64,000 bases of DNA, taken from Bdellovibrionota bacterium (lineage in GTDB: Bacteria; Bdellovibrionota; UBA2428). Each line of letters opens with the position of its first letter. Within the stretch, counting starts at the first letter, position 1. This document shows positions 46,540-57,271 of the stretch, in pieces. The position numbers and the translations under genes are program-made. The DNA lies in assembly GCA_964201665.1 (NCBI GenBank), contig CAXNEW010000004.1:11552-75551 (forward strand), written 5' to 3'. Below the pieces are notes generated by a model. That model did not search any database. It worked only from the letters and a program-made list of their open reading frames with translations, and had not been told where the DNA came from.

Positions 46540-47352
46540 GTGTCTATAGTGGCGTACAATTTATTTTTTTCGTTGGTAATGTTAGGTGTCTCTTTGTTTA
46601 CAGGTTGCATGACGGTTCCAGGAACCAATAAACGGGCTTTAAATATTCTTCCTCGTAGCCAGGAGCTGCAAATGGGTGAAGAGGCCTATCAAGAAATTCT
46701 CAAAAAAGAAAAGCGAAGTAAAAATCCCAAACTCACAAGTTTACTTGAGCGTGTGGGACAAAGGATTTCTCAAGTCACGGGAATAACCGATTTTAAATGG
46801 GAGTTTGCCTTAATAGAAAACCCCCAGATGAATGCTTTCTGTTTACCTGGTGGCAAAGTCGCCTTTTACACCGGTATTTTGCCAGTCCTCGAAAACGAAG
46901 GCGCAATGGCGATTGTCATGGGGCACGAAGTCGCTCACGCAGTAGCCCAACATGGAGCCCAACGGGTTTCGCAAGCTCTTGTGACACAGTTAGGATTGGC
47001 GGCCATAGATGTAGCCATTTTGAAGGATTCCAAATACCGAAACCTCACGTTGGGACTTCTCGGAGCAGGAGCCCAGTTCGGAGTTTTGCTGCCCCACTCG
47101 CGCTCCAATGAAACCGAAGCCGATAGCCTCGGCATTCGCTATGCGGCCCAGGCGGGCTATGATCCCGCCGAGGGTGCCGCTTTTTGGGAAAGATTTTCGC
47201 GCGCCACTGGCGCAGGCGGAAAACCTCCCGAATTTATGTCCACCCACCCCTCGGACACATCAAGAATTGAAAATCTCAAGGGCCTCTCACAAGAGGTCAT
47301 GCAAATTTATTTGGCCTCACCCCAGTACGGCAAAGGAGAAAAACTTTTATGA
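46540..47352 (+). CDS. M48-family zinc metallopeptidase lipoprotein (LoiP/YggG-like)
   Basis: Lipobox LFTGC, HEXXH motif GHEVAHAVAQH and a downstream glutamate in SNETEAD; 270 aa; GTG start in the track. Confidence 0.8.
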   Translation: MSIVAYNLFFSLVMLGVSLFTGCMTVPGTNKRALNILPRSQELQMGEEAYQEILKKEKRSKNPKLTSLLERVGQRISQVTGITDFKWEFALIENPQMNAFCLPGGKVAFYTGILPVLENEGAMAIVMGHEVAHAVAQHGAQRVSQALVTQLGLAAIDVAILKDSKYRNLTLGLLGAGAQFGVLLPHSRSNETEADSLGIRYAAQAGYDPAEGAAFWERFSRATGAGGKPPEFMSTHPSDTSRIENLKGLSQEVMQIYLASPQYGKGEKLL

Positions 47353-52469: not shown

Positions 52470-55400
52470 TTACATCACTGTTTCGACTTTTAGGGTTCCC
52501 GGAATCAAAATTCGGGTAGAAATTTCTTCAACAAGTTTTTTTGAAGGGTGCACTCGGAATTTATTTCCGGCATCAATTTTAGTCGAAAATTGTCCCGGAT
52601 TTGAAAGTGTAATTTCGACAGGAACTGAGCCCGGATGTTTTTGCAAAATACCCGCAATTTCAGTGAGCAGGGTTTGCACTGACATTCCCCCGCGACTCAG
52701 CGGCGCTAGGCCCACTTCGATAGCAATTTTTTTCGGCCATTTTTCTTCAATTTGACTTAAGTCCTCGACAGCCATGCGCCCCGCAATACTGATGTCGCCA
52801 CATAAAAGCTTGGGCTTGTCTTCTTCGAAATCAAGATTGGCCCGAACCACAAGGGGCCGCCCACTAGCAAAAAGTTTGGAGAATTCTTTAAAGTGATCGG
52901 GAAATGAAATGAGCTCAAGGGTGCCCGTAGAATCTTCGAGCTTTACAATTCCCATGAGCTCACCCGCGCGACGACCTTTTTTAACTCGAACCTCGCGCAA
53001 CTCCGAAACCCAGGCCGCAATCGTGACTTGGGTTTGAGGGGCTTTTTCGCCAAGATCAAAAATGTGAATACACCCTAGGGCCCGAGCTTTCTCAAGGTAT
53101 CGATCCATGGGAGTTCCTGAAAGGAAAATTCCCAATAGCTCTTTTTCCCAATCGAGCATTTGTTTTTGGGTTAGAGCTAACTGAGGTTCAGTGTATTTAG
53201 GGCGCGACTCTATTGAACTCTCACCCGGGCCTCCACTGGGGCTTGGACCCCCATCAAAAAGTGAAAACTGTCCGGCCTCCTTAGTTGCATTTTGATTTGA
53301 GGCCCACTCTAGAGCGAGCTCCACAGTGGCGAGATATCGCCCGCGAAGCTCCGTGGCATTTTCTGAAAGTGAATCAAAGGCTCCGGCCTGTATTAGGGCT
53401 TCCAGCATGCGCTTATTTACGCGACGGATATCTACGCGCGAAACAAAATCAAAAAGATCTGTGAACTTTCGATTGGGATCAATTTTACGAGATTCTAGGA
53501 TGGCTTCAACTCCGGCTTCGCCAACGTTTTTTACAGCCGACAATCCAAACCGAATTGTGGATTCGCCTACAATAGAAAAATCACTTCCCGATTCATTCAC
53601 ATCAGGAGGCAAGATTTTGAGGCCCCGAGCTCGCGCATCAGAAATATACCTTGAGAGTTTGTCGGTATCTGTTTTTTCAATAGTTAAAAGAGCCGTAAAA
53701 AATTCTGTTGGGTAAACAGTTTTCAGGTAGGCGGTTTGAACCGCCAAAAGCGCATAGGCTGCCGCGTGACTTTTATTAAATCCATAGCCTGCAAATTTTT
53801 CAATCAAATCAAAGAGCTCGCCTGCCTTAGCTGCGGGCTTGCCCATTTTGACAGACCCATCAACAAAGCCTGCTCTTTGGGCGTCCATCTCTTTTGCGTT
53901 CTTTTTGCCCATGGCGCGTCTCAAAAGGTCAGCGCCGCCTAACGTGAAACCCGCTACCAGACGAGCGATTTCCATGACCTGCTCTTGGTAAATGATAACC
54001 CCATAGGTTTCGCGCAGGCACTCTTCCATTTCTGGAAAAGGCACTTCAACTTTGGCACGTCCATGCTTTCTGTTTATAAAATCATCGACCATTCCGGCCT
54101 GCAGGGGGCCGGGTCTAAAAAGCGCGTTAATGGCGGCAATATCTGCAAAGCGATCGGGTTTCATACGCACGCATAGATTTTGCATGCCCGAACTTTCAAG
54201 CTGAAAAACTCCCAAGGTGTCGCCCGCAGCAATGAGTTGATAGGAGCGCGGATCGTGCAAGGGAATATTGTGATAGTAAAGTTTTTGAGCCTCAGGCTCG
54301 GGCCTTTTGCGAATCCACTGAGTGGCAAGATCCATCAAATCAAGGGTCACCAGACCCAGAAAATCAAACTTTACGAGCCCGGCTTCTTCGGACATTTTCA
54401 TGTCCCACTGGGTGAGAATATTTCCCTCGGCGTCTTGGCTTAGGGGGGCGACTTCAGCCACGGGTTTTGAAGAAATAATAACTCCGGCCGCATGAACTCC
54501 GGGTTGCCTTAGGGCGCCTTCAATTCGCAGTGCTAAATCCACGCACTGTTTGATTTTTGGATCATCGGCAACATTTTTTCGAAGTTCTTCAACTTCTTCA
54601 AGGGCCTCAGAAATCGTGAGAGGTTTTGCCTGCACACTTGGAATTAATTTAGTCAGCCGGTTGGTCTCACTAAAACTAAGTCCCAAAACTCGACCCACAT
54701 CCTTAAGAGCATTTTTTGACTGCTCCTTGGCAAAGGTCACAATCTGACAAACATGGTCTCGCCCGTATTTTGCAGTCACATAGCGAATCACTTCAGCACG
54801 TTTTTCTTGGCAAAAATCGACGTCAAAGTCAGGAAGCGAAACTCGCTCAGGATTCAAAAACCGCTCAAACAAAAGACCATGCTCGATGGGGTCAAGGTCG
54901 GTGATATCCAAAACATAGGCCGCAAGTGAACCTGCGCCCGAACCCCGCCCCGGGCCCACGGGAATATCGTGGGATTTTGCCCAACGGATAAAATCCGAGA
55001 CTATCAAGTAATAGCCTGCAAAACCCATTTTTTGAATGGTATCGATTTCATACTCTAAACGATTTTTATAGATTTCAAGCTTACGGGTATCGGTATCAAG
55101 GCCTAACTTTTGAAAGCGAGCCTCAAGACCCTCGCGACAATTATTGGCAAAAAGAATTTCTTGGCTTTGTCCCTGGCTTTCAAAACGGGGCAAATGAAAA
55201 ATTCGTTTGCCCTCGGAGTCTTTAAACTTAAGTTCAACATTGCAACGTTCAGCAATTCTTAGAGTGTTCTCGATGGCCTCGGGAATATGCGAAAAGGCCT
55301 CTTTCATTTCTTCAGGTGTCTTTAAATAAAAATCGCGTGGACTTAGGCGCGAGTGAGGATTTTCTTGCAGAGTCAGTTTTTGGGCCACCATCATCCAAAC

Positions 55401-56054
55401 TTCTTGGGCAGCGGCATCGTCGGCAGTTGCATAGTGAACATCGCTTGTTGCAACAAAGCCCAGACCCCGCTTGTTGCCCATATCCAACAAAATTTCTTGG
55501 GCCTTACGAATGGGTGAGAGCGAAGATTCTTGAAGTTCTATAAACAGATTCTCTTGACCGAGTTCTTTTTGCAAAAGATCGAGTGTGGATTCAGCAAGTC
55601 CCATCTGGTCTTGAATCAGAAACGAATTGAGAATGCCCTTGGTACCTGCAGTGAGAGCAATGAGGCCCTCTTTGTTTTTAAAAATTTCAGCCAGGGGTAT
55701 TTGAGGCCTTAAAACCTCACCGTCCCTGCCGAAATCCAAATGCGAACGGGTGACAATGCGAGAAAGATTTTCAAAGCCCTTTTTATTTTCAGCAAGTAAA
55801 ATGAGATGGCGAAGTCCGGGCCCTGCCCCCTCAACTGTTACCCCTAACTCAACTCCAAAAATGGGTTTAATTTTAGCTGCGCTATTTCCCTTGCAGGCCT
55901 TCCAAAAAGCCAGGGCTCCGTACAAATTTCCCCAGTCCGTAAGTGCCAAAGCGGGAGACCCCATGGCCCCCACGCGCGCAACCAGGTCGTCCATTTTAAT
56001 GAGACTCGATGAAAGGGAGTATTCCGAATGTACGTGGAGATGAACAAAAGACAC
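52470..56054 (-). CDS. dnaE: DNA polymerase III alpha subunit
   Basis: PHP domain start MSFVHLHVHSEYS, polymerase core motifs GPGRGSGAGSL and KFDFLGL, an OB-fold C-terminus; 1194 aa, contiguous with no intein insertion. Confidence 0.95.
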   Translation of the reverse strand: MSFVHLHVHSEYSLSSSLIKMDDLVARVGAMGSPALALTDWGNLYGALAFWKACKGNSAAKIKPIFGVELGVTVEGAGPGLRHLILLAENKKGFENLSRIVTRSHLDFGRDGEVLRPQIPLAEIFKNKEGLIALTAGTKGILNSFLIQDQMGLAESTLDLLQKELGQENLFIELQESSLSPIRKAQEILLDMGNKRGLGFVATSDVHYATADDAAAQEVWMMVAQKLTLQENPHSRLSPRDFYLKTPEEMKEAFSHIPEAIENTLRIAERCNVELKFKDSEGKRIFHLPRFESQGQSQEILFANNCREGLEARFQKLGLDTDTRKLEIYKNRLEYEIDTIQKMGFAGYYLIVSDFIRWAKSHDIPVGPGRGSGAGSLAAYVLDITDLDPIEHGLLFERFLNPERVSLPDFDVDFCQEKRAEVIRYVTAKYGRDHVCQIVTFAKEQSKNALKDVGRVLGLSFSETNRLTKLIPSVQAKPLTISEALEEVEELRKNVADDPKIKQCVDLALRIEGALRQPGVHAAGVIISSKPVAEVAPLSQDAEGNILTQWDMKMSEEAGLVKFDFLGLVTLDLMDLATQWIRKRPEPEAQKLYYHNIPLHDPRSYQLIAAGDTLGVFQLESSGMQNLCVRMKPDRFADIAAINALFRPGPLQAGMVDDFINRKHGRAKVEVPFPEMEECLRETYGVIIYQEQVMEIARLVAGFTLGGADLLRRAMGKKNAKEMDAQRAGFVDGSVKMGKPAAKAGELFDLIEKFAGYGFNKSHAAAYALLAVQTAYLKTVYPTEFFTALLTIEKTDTDKLSRYISDARARGLKILPPDVNESGSDFSIVGESTIRFGLSAVKNVGEAGVEAILESRKIDPNRKFTDLFDFVSRVDIRRVNKRMLEALIQAGAFDSLSENATELRGRYLATVELALEWASNQNATKEAGQFSLFDGGPSPSGGPGESSIESRPKYTEPQLALTQKQMLDWEKELLGIFLSGTPMDRYLEKARALGCIHIFDLGEKAPQTQVTIAAWVSELREVRVKKGRRAGELMGIVKLEDSTGTLELISFPDHFKEFSKLFASGRPLVVRANLDFEEDKPKLLCGDISIAGRMAVEDLSQIEEKWPKKIAIEVGLAPLSRGGMSVQTLLTEIAGILQKHPGSVPVEITLSNPGQFSTKIDAGNKFRVHPSKKLVEEISTRILIPGTLKVETVM

Positions 56055-56501
56055 TCTCTAGAATTAGCGGCCAGAGGTTGAGCTATCAACTCAAGCCACT
56101 AACACACCCGCTAAAGGCGACAAACACTGCGTTATTTGAGTTTATTTGAAAATGACTCGGCTTTTGTCAGGGGAATAAATCCTACAACATCGATTTGGCC
56201 CATTAACATTTTCAACAATGAGACTATAAACTCTTTCGATTTTTTTAGGGTTTGCGGTACCAAAATCGAGAAACCGATTGTTTCTGAGTGATTTTAGAGG
56301 CTTATCATAATCCACAAAAACGAACTCCTAAGCTACCCCAAAGTCCGACCTTTCAGACGGTCCATATAATCGGGCAAAAAGATGGCCTAAAGAGCGGTCC
56401 TAGGCTGGCCCAGTTCTTGCTCGGGCAGAGAACGAAGTCTCGTTTCGATGCTTCGCGAAAACAAAAAGGCACTCGTTGCCTCAACAAAAAGGAGTTTTAA
56501 A

Positions 56502-57215
56502 ATGAACGTATTCAACAAATTAAAAATGGGAGTCGCGGCAATTGCACTGAGCTCAGCGTCGCTGAGTTTTGCAGGCAATCCCGCTTGCCCCGAAGGCCAC
56601 TGCAGCCATGTCAACGCCACTATTAAAAAGTTTTGCGATGACAACGGTTTGAAAGGTCAATTTCCGGTTATTAAAGATGGAACTATTTGCGATTGCCCAT
56701 GTAGCTGCGTCATAGGCGACACTCAAATTTTGCTAAACACGAAATTTGAATCTACACCCATAAAAAACCTTCAAGTCGGAGACAACGTAGCTGTTGTTGG
56801 CGAACGCATGGGCACTTCAAAAGTGACAAGATTTATGGGAGATATTTCGCCCGTAACCCATAAAGTTGTTCGTCTACAAACAGATAGCAAACACGAACTT
56901 GCGGTAAGCAACAATCATACTTTTGTTAAACCTAGCAAAGTGCTTGTTCAGGCTGAACAACTTTCTGTAGGAGATGAAATTTTAGACGTAAATGGAAAAC
57001 CCGTTAAAGTCATAAATCTCACAAGCAACGACATGACAGCCCAGCTTTTCAATCTGGTTGTCAATGAAGGCAGCGACAACCCTAGTGACCACATCATAGG
57101 CACTCAAGGACTCATGTCAGGTGACTACATGCTGCAAGCGACACAAGATTCACTACAGTCTGCGATCAACGTCAGAACTGGAAAAGTCCAACCCCTTAGC
57201 ATTAACAACAAATAG
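56502..57215 (+). CDS. Secreted protein: signal peptide + 44-aa six-Cys module + Hint (Hedgehog/intein-like) autoprocessing domain
   Basis: The ATG at 56502 is preceded by AAGGAG. Signal peptide MNVFNKLKMGVAAIALSSASLSFA. Hint block A is C-VIGDTQILL (Cys codon 56706-56708) with VGDNVAV. The block B-like motif is AVSNNHTFV. The C-terminal block is LFNLVVNEG...HIIGTQGLMSGD. Confidence 0.65.
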   Translation: MNVFNKLKMGVAAIALSSASLSFAGNPACPEGHCSHVNATIKKFCDDNGLKGQFPVIKDGTICDCPCSCVIGDTQILLNTKFESTPIKNLQVGDNVAVVGERMGTSKVTRFMGDISPVTHKVVRLQTDSKHELAVSNNHTFVKPSKVLVQAEQLSVGDEILDVNGKPVKVINLTSNDMTAQLFNLVVNEGSDNPSDHIIGTQGLMSGDYMLQATQDSLQSAINVRTGKVQPLSINNK

Positions 57216-57271
57216 ATATCCACAATGGGGCTAATTCCTTGGAATTGGCCCCATCACATTTCGAGGTAAAC

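What the first reader, a model, noticed from the sequence alone, without database searches (positions are those of the whole stretch)
56502..57215. Hedgehog-like architecture: small six-Cys secreted module fused directly to a Hint domain
After the predicted signal peptide (cleavage after SFA), the mature N-part is only 44 aa: GNPACPEGHCSHVNATIKKFCDDNGLKGQFPVIKDGTICDCPCS. It has six Cys, enough for three disulfides. It ends exactly at the Hint block-A nucleophile Cys (C-VIGDTQILL). Established Hint chemistry (an N-S acyl shift at that Cys) would release the 44-aa module as a thioester. That thioester could be hydrolysed or captured by a nucleophile, as happens with cholesterol in Hedgehog. A bacterial secreted knottin-sized peptide matured by a dedicated Hint domain would be unusual. 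The tail after the Hint domain is only about 25 aa, so this is neither a classical intein within a host protein nor a large toxin.
Basis: partly seen in the sequence, partly recalled or inferred. Interest (0 to 1): 0.7.

Follow-up and report, generated by a model that had tools for sequence, protein, structure and literature searches.

The report
Secreted cysteine-rich peptide fused to Hint domain
This gene encodes an exported 237-residue protein in which a 44-residue six-cysteine module runs straight into a self-cleaving-type (Hint) domain; it belongs to a large, uncharacterised bacterial family whose Hint type was briefly noted in the literature in 2008, so it is real and interesting but not a wholly new kind of thing.

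Summary
Window 56502-57215 (+) is a real gene with an AAGGAG ribosome-binding site. It encodes a signal peptide, a 44-aa module with six Cys and one His, a Hint domain that starts at Cys69, and a 29-aa tail. The Hint assignment is solid. The AlphaFold model has pLDDT above 95 over residues 70-220, Foldseek matches BIL domains, mini-inteins and Hedgehog at probability 1.0, and the family profile hits BIL structure 2lwy at E 2.5e-10. The gene is not an orphan. A full HMMER scan found 290 cluster representatives. In 46 full-length relatives C29, H33, C34, C63, C65, C67, C69, H139 and D208 are invariant. Block B is S/T-x-x-H. Asp208 replaces the intein terminal Asn. Longer relatives carry the same module and Hint domain fused to an M48-like HExxH domain, and some of these lack a signal peptide. 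The short forms sit in a conserved cassette with a secreted metzincin-motif protein, whose motif is degenerate in this window, and a membrane-anchored protein. The most likely mechanism is an N-S acyl shift at Ser68-Cys69 that releases the module; this is inferred, not shown. The same Hint subgroup, with signal peptide, conserved upstream Cys and the "GD...Q" end motif, was noted by Bürglin in 2008. It is probably the "C-type BIL" of 2009. I rate it a new variant of a known kind.

The parts
56489..56494 (+). Ribosome-binding site AAGGAG, 7 nt upstream of the ATG
   Evidence: Read directly from the sequence
56502..56573 (+). Signal peptide, residues 1-24, with predicted cleavage after S-F-A
   Evidence: Sequence layout. 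Of 54 short family members, 46 have a signal-peptide-like N-terminus. No signal-peptide predictor was available.
56574..56705 (+). Cys/His-rich N-module, residues 25-68. Family motif: C-x3-H-C-x10-C-x17-29-C-x-C-x-C-S.
   Evidence: Invariant C29, H33, C34, C63, C65 and C67 in 46 of 46 relatives. Free-standing or tandem copies occur in P0061, P0069 and P0074. No Pfam or PDB match was found. AF2 pLDDT is 65-74.
56706..57125 (+). Hint domain, residues 69-208. It runs from the block-A nucleophile Cys69 to the invariant Asp208, which sits where inteins have their terminal Asn.
   Evidence: AF2 pLDDT is above 95. Foldseek probability is 1.0 to BIL, intein and Hedgehog structures. The family profile hits 2lwy at E 2.5e-10. 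hhalign gives 97.3% to a PT-HINT domain.
56706..56708 (+). Cys69 codon (TGC), the predicted nucleophile for the N-S acyl shift at the Ser68-Cys69 bond
   Evidence: Invariant in 46 of 46 relatives. It aligns with residue 1 of inteins and of Hedgehog HhC.
56907..56918 (+). Block B, S136-N-N-H139 (the S/T-x-x-H motif)
   Evidence: It aligns with TFDH, SEEH, THHP and TVNH of solved BILs and inteins. H139 is present in 70 of 72 relatives.
57123..57125 (+). Asp208 codon, within the motif G-x-x-S-G-D-[WYF]-x-x-Q
   Evidence: D208 is present in 72 of 72 relatives and Q212 in 70 of 72. By manual alignment, IGTQGLMSGD matches VGQSGVLVHN of P0049.
57126..57215 (+). Conserved C-terminal tail, residues 209-237, plus the stop codon. 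Residues 209-225 are predicted to form a helix.
   Evidence: AF2 predicts helix 209-225 with pLDDT about 87-97. The median tail length in short forms is 28 aa. Q212 and D216 are conserved.
57225..57254 (+). 13-bp hairpin between the Hint gene and the next gene
   Evidence: RNA fold gives -20.5 kcal/mol, z -2.8, with no U-tract after it.
57272..58009 (+). Partner A: a secreted 245-aa protein. Its homologues carry HExxHxxGxxH, but this copy is degenerate (AHEALRNLGYEE, residues 197-208).
   Evidence: It lies next to the Hint gene in the 5 loci compared by blastp (window, L004, L010, L011, L013; E 2e-9 to 3e-54); P0153 shares contig length 5240 with P0005, likely a sixth. Alignments A3 and A4. 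Reprolysin/ADAM hits are weak only. The fold search was uninformative.
58006..58656 (+). Partner B: a 216-aa protein with an N-terminal membrane anchor
   Evidence: Homologues lie downstream of the Hint gene in L001, L004 and L013.

Best explanation
The gene encodes a Sec-exported precursor of a self-processing protein. After the signal peptide is removed, the Hint domain (residues 69-208) is predicted to convert the Ser68-Cys69 peptide bond into a thioester. It would do this by an N-S acyl shift that uses Cys69 and the block-B Ser136/His139 pair. Resolving that thioester, either by water or by another nucleophile, would release the 44-residue Cys/His-rich module (G25-S68) as a separate small extracellular or periplasmic peptide. 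The invariant Asp208 sits where inteins have their terminal Asn, next to the active site. Together with the conserved tail helix, it is proposed to help resolve the thioester or, alternatively, to cleave the tail. The released module probably works together with zinc metallopeptidases. The short forms are encoded next to a secreted metzincin-motif protein and a membrane-anchored protein, and the long forms have an M48-like HExxH domain fused after the Hint domain.

Shown here: the gene, the domain architecture, the Hint fold, residue conservation, family size and conserved gene neighbourhood.
Inferred: cleavage itself, the fate of the thioester, the roles of Asp208 and the tail, and any link to protease function.
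For: - Hint fold: AF2 mean pLDDT is 86.6, and above 95 for residues 70-220. Foldseek against the PDB gives 70 hits at E<=1e-3. The top hits are BIL2 6y75 (E 4e-10), C. thermocellum BIL 2lwy (TM 0.84), mini-inteins, and Hedgehog 1at0/6tyy (TM 0.77).
- Profile evidence: family profile against the PDB gives 2lwy at E 2.5e-10 and gp41-1 intein at 3e-7. Profile position 68/69 aligns with residue 1 of inteins and HhC, and 'vSeNHtf' aligns with their T-x-x-H. hhalign to a bona fide PT-HINT domain gives 97.3%. Hint-clan Pfam hits occur in 12-16 of 46 members, best 6e-10.
- Catalytic residues under selection: C69 is present in 46 of 46 relatives, H139 in 70 of 72 and D208 in 72 of 72.
- Family size: 290 representatives at E<=1e-3 and 69 at E<=1e-10.
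- The N-module is an autonomous unit, because extra or tandem copies occur without a Hint domain.
- Export: 46 of 54 short forms have a signal-peptide-like N-terminus.
- Protease link: partner A lies next to the Hint gene in the 5 loci compared directly, and probably a sixth, with HExxHxxGxxH intact in 5 of 7 homologues. In the long forms, 15 of 22 have HExxH and Pfam M48 scores 24.8-25 bits against a cut-off of 20.3. RefSeq annotates such proteins as 'M48 family metalloprotease'.
- Established knowledge: Cys1 plus the block-B Thr/His pair suffice for thioester formation in inteins, BILs and Hedgehog.
Against: - No biochemical evidence for cleavage exists for this protein or, as far as I could read, for this exact subfamily.
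- The single-sequence Pfam and NCBIfam Hint hits are all below the curated thresholds.
- Residue -1 is Ser, not the Gly of Hedgehog.
- The block-F Asp is replaced by Asn184 and the penultimate His by Gly207, so the catalytic environment is atypical.
- The CxCxCSC string places Cys67 two residues from the nucleophile, so a Cys67-Cys69 disulfide or metal ligation could block the reaction.
- Some relatives lack a signal peptide, so 'secreted disulfide peptide' cannot be the universal description.
- Partner A in this window has lost two of its three zinc-ligand His residues.
- The partner A fold could not be confirmed.
- Partner A is not detectably homologous to the C-terminal domain of the long forms.
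Confidence: 0.6

Rival explanations
1. Cleavage occurs at the C-terminal junction, or at both junctions. Under this reading the invariant Asp208, which occupies the intein terminal-Asn position, cyclises and cuts the Asp208-Tyr209 bond. This is how A-type BIL and PT-HINT domains release their C-terminal cargo. In the long forms this would free the M48-like peptidase domain. In short forms like this one it would only shed the 29-aa tail, and the N-module would act as a targeting or anchoring domain.
For: - D208 is present in 72 of 72 relatives, and the sequence just before it aligns with the '...VLVHN' end of PT-HINT domains.
- The long forms place a peptidase-like domain exactly where polymorphic toxins place their cargo.
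- From my own knowledge, unverified here: inteins that end in Asp or Gln can still cleave (Amitai et al. 2004, J Biol Chem).
Against: - Penultimate His is replaced by Gly207.
- C-terminal cleavage does not need Cys1 or block B, yet both are invariant.
- The tail is itself conserved (Q212, D216) and is modelled as a helix packed on the Hint core at high pLDDT. That fits a functional part of the domain better than a leaving group.
- The short forms have no cargo.
Confidence: 0.2
2. The Hint domain does not cleave. It is a structural or binding scaffold, and the seven Cys plus His33, including Cys69, form a metal cluster (for example two zinc sites) or a fixed disulfide network. The protein would then act as an intact unit.
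For: - Cys plus His add up to eight potential ligands.
- H33 is invariant in the core family.
- The same module occurs at the extreme N-terminus of proteins with no signal peptide in Bacillus, Streptomyces and Burkholderia, where disulfides are unfavourable.
- The alternating CxCxCxC pattern puts four thiols on one face of a strand.
Against: - Block-B S/T-x-x-H is retained in 70 of 72 relatives, and it has no known role other than catalysing the acyl shift.
- His33 is replaced by F, Y or K in the duplicated modules of more distant relatives.
- Free-standing copies of the module end at the sixth Cys and lack a seventh, so Cys69 belongs to the Hint domain and not to the module.
Confidence: 0.12
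3. The gene is a classical mobile intein, or the pretoxin Hint domain of a polymorphic toxin.
For: The best single-sequence Pfam hit is PT-HINT, at E 8e-5.
Against: - There is no host protein. The N-flank is a conserved 44-aa module and the C-flank is 29 aa.
- There is no His-Asn end and no +1 nucleophile.
- There is no toxin domain and no homing endonuclease.
- The PT-HINT score is below the Pfam cut-off, 23.3 against 27.7 bits.
- Length and architecture are conserved across hundreds of relatives.
Confidence: 0.02

Closest known systems
Bacterial 'novel Hint-like' secreted proteins described by Bürglin 2008 (BMC Genomics 9:127, PMC2362128). Examples are Myxococcus MXAN_6253, Stigmatella STIAU_1829, Reinekea MED297_11140, Photorhabdus plu1731, and Serratia and Yersinia proteins. 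The paper says this group was also detected earlier by Dassa & Pietrokovski.
   Same: - A signal peptide is present in some members.
- The N-terminal region has conserved cysteines.
- The Hint-like domain sits at the C-terminus and has motifs A and B.
- The junction is x-[GS]-C-[IVM].
- The end motif is the same: [AN]G-x-x-V-G-D-x-x-x-Q (FAGGILVGDNNLQ, FANGIAIGDLGYQ) against GTQGLMSGDYMLQ here.
   Different: - That group was described as having only two conserved upstream Cys and weakly similar N-regions. This family has a sharply defined module, C-x3-H-C-x10-C-x17-29-C-x-C-x-C-S.
- No partner genes or M48 fusions were reported for that group.
- I could compare only OCR fragments of its alignment, not full sequences.
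C-type bacterial intein-like (BIL) domains with the PPS-1 domain, from Bdellovibrio and other predatory bacteria (Dori-Bachash et al. 2009, Funct Integr Genomics 9:153, PMID 19153786)
   Same: - It is a third BIL type in proteins of predatory delta-proteobacteria.
- It is associated with a new flanking domain (secondary citation in PMC9185962).
- The only named short-form relative of the window protein comes from an Oligoflexia MAG.
- Myxococcus and Stigmatella appear in Bürglin's group.
   Different: The paper is not held in the library. I therefore could not compare motifs, architecture or the PPS-1 domain, and identity with this family is a lead from memory and secondary citation only.
Hedgehog/Hog proteins (Hh, nematode Warthog/Groundhog, choanoflagellate Hoglet)
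   Same: - The layout is signal peptide, N-terminal module (often Cys-rich), Hint domain starting with Cys, then a C-terminal extension.
- The Hint fold matches HhC structures 1at0 and 6tyy at TM 0.77.
- There is no terminal Asn, so N-terminal cleavage without splicing is expected.
   Different: - The junction is S-C-V, not G-C-F.
- The tail is 29 aa, against a sterol-recognition region of about 70 aa.
- Pfam Hint (PF01079) scores only 17.1 bits against a cut-off of 29.7.
- The N-module is unrelated to the Hedge domain.
- The Hedgehog general-base Asp46 equivalent was not identified.
- No adduct is known.
A-type BIL / PT-HINT domains (for example C. thermocellum BIL, PDB 2lwy, and polymorphic-toxin pretoxin Hint domains)
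   Same: - These give the best sequence-profile and structural matches.
- They occur in secreted bacterial proteins.
- They have no +1 nucleophile.
   Different: - A-type BILs end in a conserved His-Asn (PMC7765530). This protein ends in Gly-Asp.
- They lie inside large variable proteins upstream of cargo, not directly after a 44-aa module.

Membership tests
HINT superfamily (Hedgehog/intein fold) | Horseshoe-shaped all-beta Hint fold | tested here: met
   The AF2 model has pLDDT above 95 over residues 70-220. Foldseek gives probability 1.0 and TM 0.72-0.86, normalised to the target, against BILs, mini-inteins and HhC.
HINT superfamily (Hedgehog/intein fold) | Block A: a Cys/Ser nucleophile as the first residue of the domain | tested here: met
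   Cys69 is invariant in 46 of 46 relatives. It aligns with residue 1 of DnaE inteins and of HhC.
HINT superfamily (Hedgehog/intein fold) | Block B: T-x-x-H | tested here: met
   S136-N-N-H139 aligns with T-x-x-H of 2lwy, 6qaz, 8w20 and 6y75. H139 is present in 70 of 72 relatives. The long forms have T-x-D-H.
HINT superfamily (Hedgehog/intein fold) | Autoprocessing activity (thioester formation and cleavage) | not testable with these tools
   This needs expression and mass spectrometry.
Canonical intein | Terminal (His-)Asn followed by a Cys/Ser/Thr +1 nucleophile | tested here: not met
   The end of the domain is S206-G207-D208, followed by Y209.
Canonical intein | Insertion within a conserved host protein | tested here: not met
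   The flanks are a 44-aa module and a 29-aa tail. The architecture is conserved as such in 54 short relatives.
Hedgehog/Hog | G-C-F cleavage junction and a match to the Pfam Hint module above threshold | tested here: not met
   The junction is S-C-V. PF01079 scores 17.1 bits against a cut-off of 29.7. More distant relatives do have a C-G-C-F junction.
Hedgehog/Hog | A sterol-recognition region of about 70 aa after the Hint domain, and a sterol adduct | tested here: not met
   The tail is 29 aa here, with a family median of 28. Adduct chemistry cannot be tested with these tools.
A-type BIL / PT-HINT | Conserved C-terminal His-Asn | tested here: not met
   Gly207-Asp208 replaces it. PF07591 scores 23.3 bits against a cut-off of 27.7. 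The feature definition is taken from PMC7765530.
B-type BIL (Pfam Hint_2) | A match to PF13403 above threshold, with intein motifs except the C-terminal one | tested here: inconclusive
   The window protein scores 19.3 bits against a cut-off of 28.4. Twelve of 46 relatives hit Hint_2 at E<=0.01, best 6e-10. The B-type end motif was not available for comparison.
Bürglin-2008 bacterial Hint-like subgroup | Signal peptide, an N-region with conserved Cys, and a C-terminal Hint-like domain with motifs A and B | tested here: met
   for this protein. The group is described in PMC2362128.
Bürglin-2008 bacterial Hint-like subgroup | Shared C-terminal end motif [AN]G-x-x-[VS]-G-D-x-x-x-Q | tested here: met
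   The window protein has GTQGLMSGDYMLQ. The OCR alignment of Additional file 17 has FAGGILVGDNNLQ, FAGGFLVGDKSMQ, FANGIAIGDLGYQ and YAAGVLVGDSTMQ. The comparison was by eye on OCR text.
Bürglin-2008 bacterial Hint-like subgroup | Significant full-length sequence similarity to the named members (MXAN_6253, plu1731 and others) | not tested
   Their sequences were not obtainable here, and my one genome-contig scan was wasted on a mistyped pattern.
C-type BIL (Dori-Bachash 2009) | C-type BIL motifs and the associated PPS-1 domain | not testable with these tools
   The paper is not held. Only a one-sentence secondary description was available.
Metzincin metallopeptidase (partner A, 57272-58009) | HExxHxxGxxH zinc-binding motif | tested here: not met
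   The window copy reads HEALRNLGYEE, so the second His is Arg and the third is Glu. The motif is intact in 5 of 7 homologues. The fold could not be confirmed: pLDDT is 68 and there were no Foldseek hits.

The most novel reading that the evidence does not exclude
Under this reading the family is a bacterial counterpart of Hedgehog-type processing. The Hint domain, its invariant Asp208 and the conserved tail helix would not simply hydrolyse the Ser68 thioester. They would transfer the Cys/His-rich peptide onto a specific nucleophile such as a lipid, a cell-wall component or a partner protein, or onto one of the peptide's own thiols or amines to give a thiolactone or cyclic peptide. The resulting modified small peptide would regulate the associated zinc metallopeptidases. 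The process might be gated by redox state through the Cys67-x-Cys69 pair.
Probability: 0.15. Interest if true: 0.85.

Novelty: new variant of a known kind. Interest (0 to 1): 0.5.

Why it matters
Hint domains are the only known protein modules that turn a peptide bond into a thioester without cofactors. In animals this chemistry attaches cholesterol to Hedgehog, and where that arrangement came from is still unknown.

This is a large, sharply conserved bacterial family with three parts: an exported mini-domain that ends exactly at the Hint nucleophile, a Hint domain with an unusual invariant Asp at the intein-Asn position, and a short conserved tail. It offers a compact, tractable system of 213 mature residues. 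With it one could ask what bacterial 'Hog-like' proteins do, whether bacteria also use Hint thioesters to attach adducts, and how such processing connects to the zinc peptidases that are fused to it or encoded beside it.

It also exposes an annotation gap. The N-module has no Pfam model, the Hint part falls below Pfam thresholds, and RefSeq labels the long forms simply as 'M48 family metalloprotease'.

Tried and rejected
1. The word-indexed homologue search found only 2 to 5 relatives. The full HMMER scan was needed to see the family.
2. The genome-contig scan for taxonomy failed through my own error. The pattern had 58 N instead of 57, which put it out of frame. As a result the taxonomic range rests only on one named Oligoflexia MAG and on plasmid hits in Bacillus, Streptomyces and Burkholderia. 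The organism of the window is not identified; the cluster look-ups carried no names.
3. I asked whether partner A or partner B is homologous to the C-terminal M48-like domain of the long forms. hmmsearch gave nothing, with all scores below 1 bit, and pairwise BLAST gave only a 33-residue stretch at E 0.03. The idea is rejected. The link between the Hint family and zinc peptidases is by association, not homology.
4. The structure of partner A was modelled from only 4 sequences and reached pLDDT 68. Foldseek found nothing at E<0.78. The metzincin assignment therefore rests on the motif plus weak reprolysin/ADAM hits.
5. The original C-type BIL paper and the related proteome paper are not held. 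Searches for 'C-type BIL', 'predator-specific domain' and 'BIL domains' with 'predatory' gave only one secondary mention.
6. The promoter and terminator scan of 56000-62600 found no more than the shuffled controls.
7. Model coordinates are not exposed, so Cys-Cys distances and the packing of the N-module could not be measured.
8. No second copy of the family is present in the window.
Full report
**1.

The ORF at window 56502-57215 (+) is present as described. Its ATG is preceded by AAGGAG (56489-56494) at a 7-nt spacing. The same start was called independently on two public contigs that carry the identical protein.

The product has 237 residues:
- Residues 1-24 (MNVFNKLKMGVAAIALSSASLSFA) look like a Sec signal peptide: Lys residues in the n-region, a hydrophobic core, and S at -3 and A at -1. 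This is my reading; no predictor was available.
- Cys69 follows immediately (C-VIGDTQILL).
- 29 residues follow the end of the Hint core.

**2. The Hint assignment is robust, though not from single-sequence Pfam**

On its own, the protein hits four Hint-clan Pfam families and TIGR01445, all below their curated cut-offs: PT-HINT at 8e-5, Hint_2 at 1.5e-3, Hint at 4e-3 and Intein_splicing at 0.07.

Family-level evidence is decisive:
- A profile of 46 relatives hits the C. thermocellum BIL structure 2lwy at E 2.5e-10, the gp41-1 intein at 3e-7 and Tetrahymena BIL2 at 3e-6. In those alignments the profile's Cys column falls on residue 1 of inteins and of Hedgehog HhC, and 'vSeNHtf' falls on their T-x-x-H.
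- hhalign to a bona fide PT-HINT repeat gives 97.3% probability.
- An AlphaFold2 model built on that alignment has mean pLDDT 86.6, above 95 for residues 70-220.
- Foldseek against the PDB returns 70 hits at E<=1e-3. All of the 50 listed are BIL domains, inteins or mini-inteins, or Hedgehog autoprocessing domains, at probability 1.0 and target-normalised TM of 0.45-0.86, mostly above 0.7.
- Twelve to sixteen of the 46 relatives individually hit Hint_2, PT-HINT, Vint or Intein_splicing, with a best E of 6e-10.

**3. It is a family, not an orphan**

The word-indexed search saw only one homologue, from an Oligoflexia MAG at 29% identity. The exhaustive HMMER scan of 1.84 billion cluster representatives found 290 at E<=1e-3, 69 at E<=1e-10 and 7 at E<=1e-30.

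I aligned 46 full-length relatives, chosen by length and coverage and not by motif. The invariant residues are C29, H33, C34, C63, C65, C67, C69, H139, N184, D208 and Q212. C45, S68, S136, N138, G207 and D216 are at least 90% conserved.

The module motif is C-x3-H-C-x10-C-x(17-29)-C-x-C-x-C-S-C.

In a wider set of 72 relatives, which was selected by the Cys motif and is therefore informative only for the other residues, the counts are D208 72/72, H139 70/72, Q212 70/72 and T74 65/72.

**4. What the motifs say about chemistry**

Block A (Cys69) and block B (S136-x-x-H139, or T-x-D-H in the long forms) are the residues that inteins, BILs and Hedgehog use for the N-S acyl shift. This is established knowledge. 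Their invariance is the main argument that the Ser68-Cys69 bond is activated.

The C-terminal end is atypical. By manual alignment, IGTQGLMSGD208 matches VGQSGVLVHN of PT-HINT repeats. The invariant Asp208 therefore sits where inteins have their terminal Asn, and Gly207 replaces the penultimate His. The next residue is aromatic or hydrophobic and is not a nucleophile, so splicing is excluded.

Asp208 could have either of two roles:
- It could act in resolving the thioester, since it should lie next to Cys69 in the horseshoe fold.
- It could cleave the downstream bond.

The tail is itself conserved (Q212, D216, median length 28 aa). It is modelled as a helix over residues 209-225 at high confidence. 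That favours the tail being a working part of the domain.

**5. The N-module is an autonomous domain of unknown fold**

- It has no Pfam or PDB match.
- Its pLDDT is 65-74.
- P0061 carries two extra copies at its C-terminus that end at the sixth Cys. P0069 and P0074 carry tandem copies upstream of the Hint domain in which the His is replaced by F, Y or K.

Forty-six of 54 short forms look exported. However, 7 of 22 long forms in the metagenomic set start directly with the module. So do complete RefSeq genes in Bacillus sp. AR4-2, Streptomyces canus and Burkholderia pyrrocinia, which begin MVRECESAHCS....

**6. Architectural variants and neighbours point to zinc peptidases**

Twenty-two of the 150 best representatives are 400-900 aa long and carry the same module and Hint domain followed by a C-terminal domain. 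Fifteen of these have HExxH (LVLAHEVGHH). Two pass the Pfam M48 threshold, at 24.8 and 25.0 bits against a cut-off of 20.3. RefSeq annotates such proteins as 'M48 family metalloprotease'.

The short forms sit in a conserved cassette:
- The gene after the Hint gene (window 57272-58009, partner A) has homologues in the same position in L004, L010, L011 and L013 (E 2e-9 to 3e-54). P0153 probably sits likewise on P0005's contig, judged only by the matching contig length of 5240.
- The next gene (58006-58656, partner B, membrane-anchored) recurs in L001, L004 and L013.

Partner A proteins are secreted. In 5 of 7 homologues they carry YWAGVIAHEFLHNLGYxHP, which contains the metzincin zinc signature HExxHxxGxxH. 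The window copy reads AHEALRNLGYEE, and the L011 copy is also degenerate.

Support beyond the motif is weak. Reprolysin hits are at E 0.02-0.1 and ADAM8/BaP1 at E about 0.4. The structure model was too poor for a fold match. Partner A is not homologous to the M48-like domain of the long forms.

**7. Mechanism**

My best reading, at confidence 0.6, has four steps:
1. The precursor is exported.
2. The Hint domain forms the Ser68 thioester.
3. The thioester is resolved.
4. The 44-aa module is released and acts together with the associated peptidases.

The architecture, fold, conservation and synteny are shown. Every chemical step is inferred.

The rivals are:
- C-terminal or dual cleavage at Asp208 (confidence 0.2, and not mutually exclusive with the main reading).
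- A non-cleaving scaffold in which Cys69 is a metal or disulfide partner (0.12).
- A classical intein or toxin module (0.02, refuted by the architecture).

A Cys67-x-Cys69 redox trap, as known for some inteins (for example PDB 3nzm, which appears in the hit lists), is a plausible gating layer.

**8. Comparison with what is known**

The protein fails the defining end motifs of canonical inteins, A-type BIL/PT-HINT and Hedgehog. It lacks the G-C-F junction, the sterol-recognition region and a Pfam Hint score above threshold.

[quoted passage not shown] The OCR text of that paper's alignment shows the same end motif: FAGGILVGDNNLQ, FAGGFLVGDKSMQ, FANGIAIGDLGYQ and YAAGVLVGDSTMQ, with junctions YGC-I, NSC-M and YSC-V.

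More distant relatives in my own hit list bridge the two groups. They have CPCGC-F junctions and VGDLxWQNSL...RQ tails.

This subgroup is probably the 'C-type BIL' with a 'PPS-1' domain that Dori-Bachash et al. reported in 2009 for Bdellovibrio. That paper is not held, and I know it only from a secondary sentence and from memory. Membership is therefore untested.

**9. Verdict**

This is a real, strongly conserved and biochemically uncharacterised family. The kind of protein (secreted N-module plus C-terminal Hint-like domain ending in GD...Q) has already been noticed.

New here are:
- the defined six-Cys/His module that abuts the nucleophile,
- the invariant Asp at the intein-Asn position,
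- the M48-fused and leaderless long forms in cultured Bacillus, Streptomyces and Burkholderia,
- the conserved cassette with a metzincin-motif partner.

I rate it a new variant of a known kind, with interest 0.5.

Noticed in passing
window 57225-57254: A perfect-looking 13-bp hairpin (GGGGCUAAUUCC..GGAAUUGGCCCC; -20.5 kcal/mol, z -2.8) lies in the 56-nt gap between the Hint gene and partner A. No U-tract follows it. It could set the ratio of Hint transcript to downstream transcript, or stabilise the upstream mRNA.
   Followed up: partly
window 57863-57895 (partner A residues 198-208): The window's partner A has lost two of the three zinc-ligand His residues of the HExxHxxGxxH motif that its homologues keep (HEALRNLGYEE against HEFLHNLGYxH). 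It is likely a pseudo-peptidase. The L011 copy is degenerate too.
   Followed up: partly
window 52470-56054 (-): This is the dnaE gene (PHP, DNA_pol3_alpha and related domains), divergently oriented from the Hint cassette. Public gene calls start 20 codons downstream, giving 1174 aa. The GTG at 56054 gives the canonical PHP N-terminus MSFVHLHVHSEYS, so the public start is probably wrong.
   Followed up: no
L016 (Burkholderia pyrrocinia plasmid NZ_CP150851.1) 4998-6707: A leaderless long-form relative, annotated 'Ig-like domain-containing protein', lies between a neuraminidase-like-domain gene and an SpvB/TcaC-N-terminal-domain gene. That is a Tc-toxin-like locus. Bürglin's group also includes the insect-associated genera Photorhabdus, Serratia and Yersinia.
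   Followed up: no
L015 (Bacillus sp. AR4-2 plasmid pl192) 6408-7964: A gene annotated 'cysteine desulfurase family protein' lies immediately downstream of the module-Hint-M48 gene on a conjugative plasmid. This is a single case and its relevance is unknown.
   Followed up: no
window 58653-62376: Three further exported proteins without any Pfam match follow the cassette on the same strand. They are 456 aa (with a lipobox-like LNSC), 371 aa and 407 aa (the last with only a weak DUF5081 hit). L013 has an LRR protein at the corresponding place.
   Followed up: no
window 46540-47352 (+): This 270-aa ORF falls in a 90% cluster whose JGI member is named 'predicted Zn-dependent protease'. It is unrelated to the cassette and was seen only while trying to identify the organism.
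   Followed up: no
P0061 residues ~545-651: One long-form relative carries two extra free-standing copies of the Cys module after its M48-like domain. They end ...CLCRCYG and ...CYCTCH, with no Hint domain after them. This shows the module can function without being cleaved off.
   Followed up: partly
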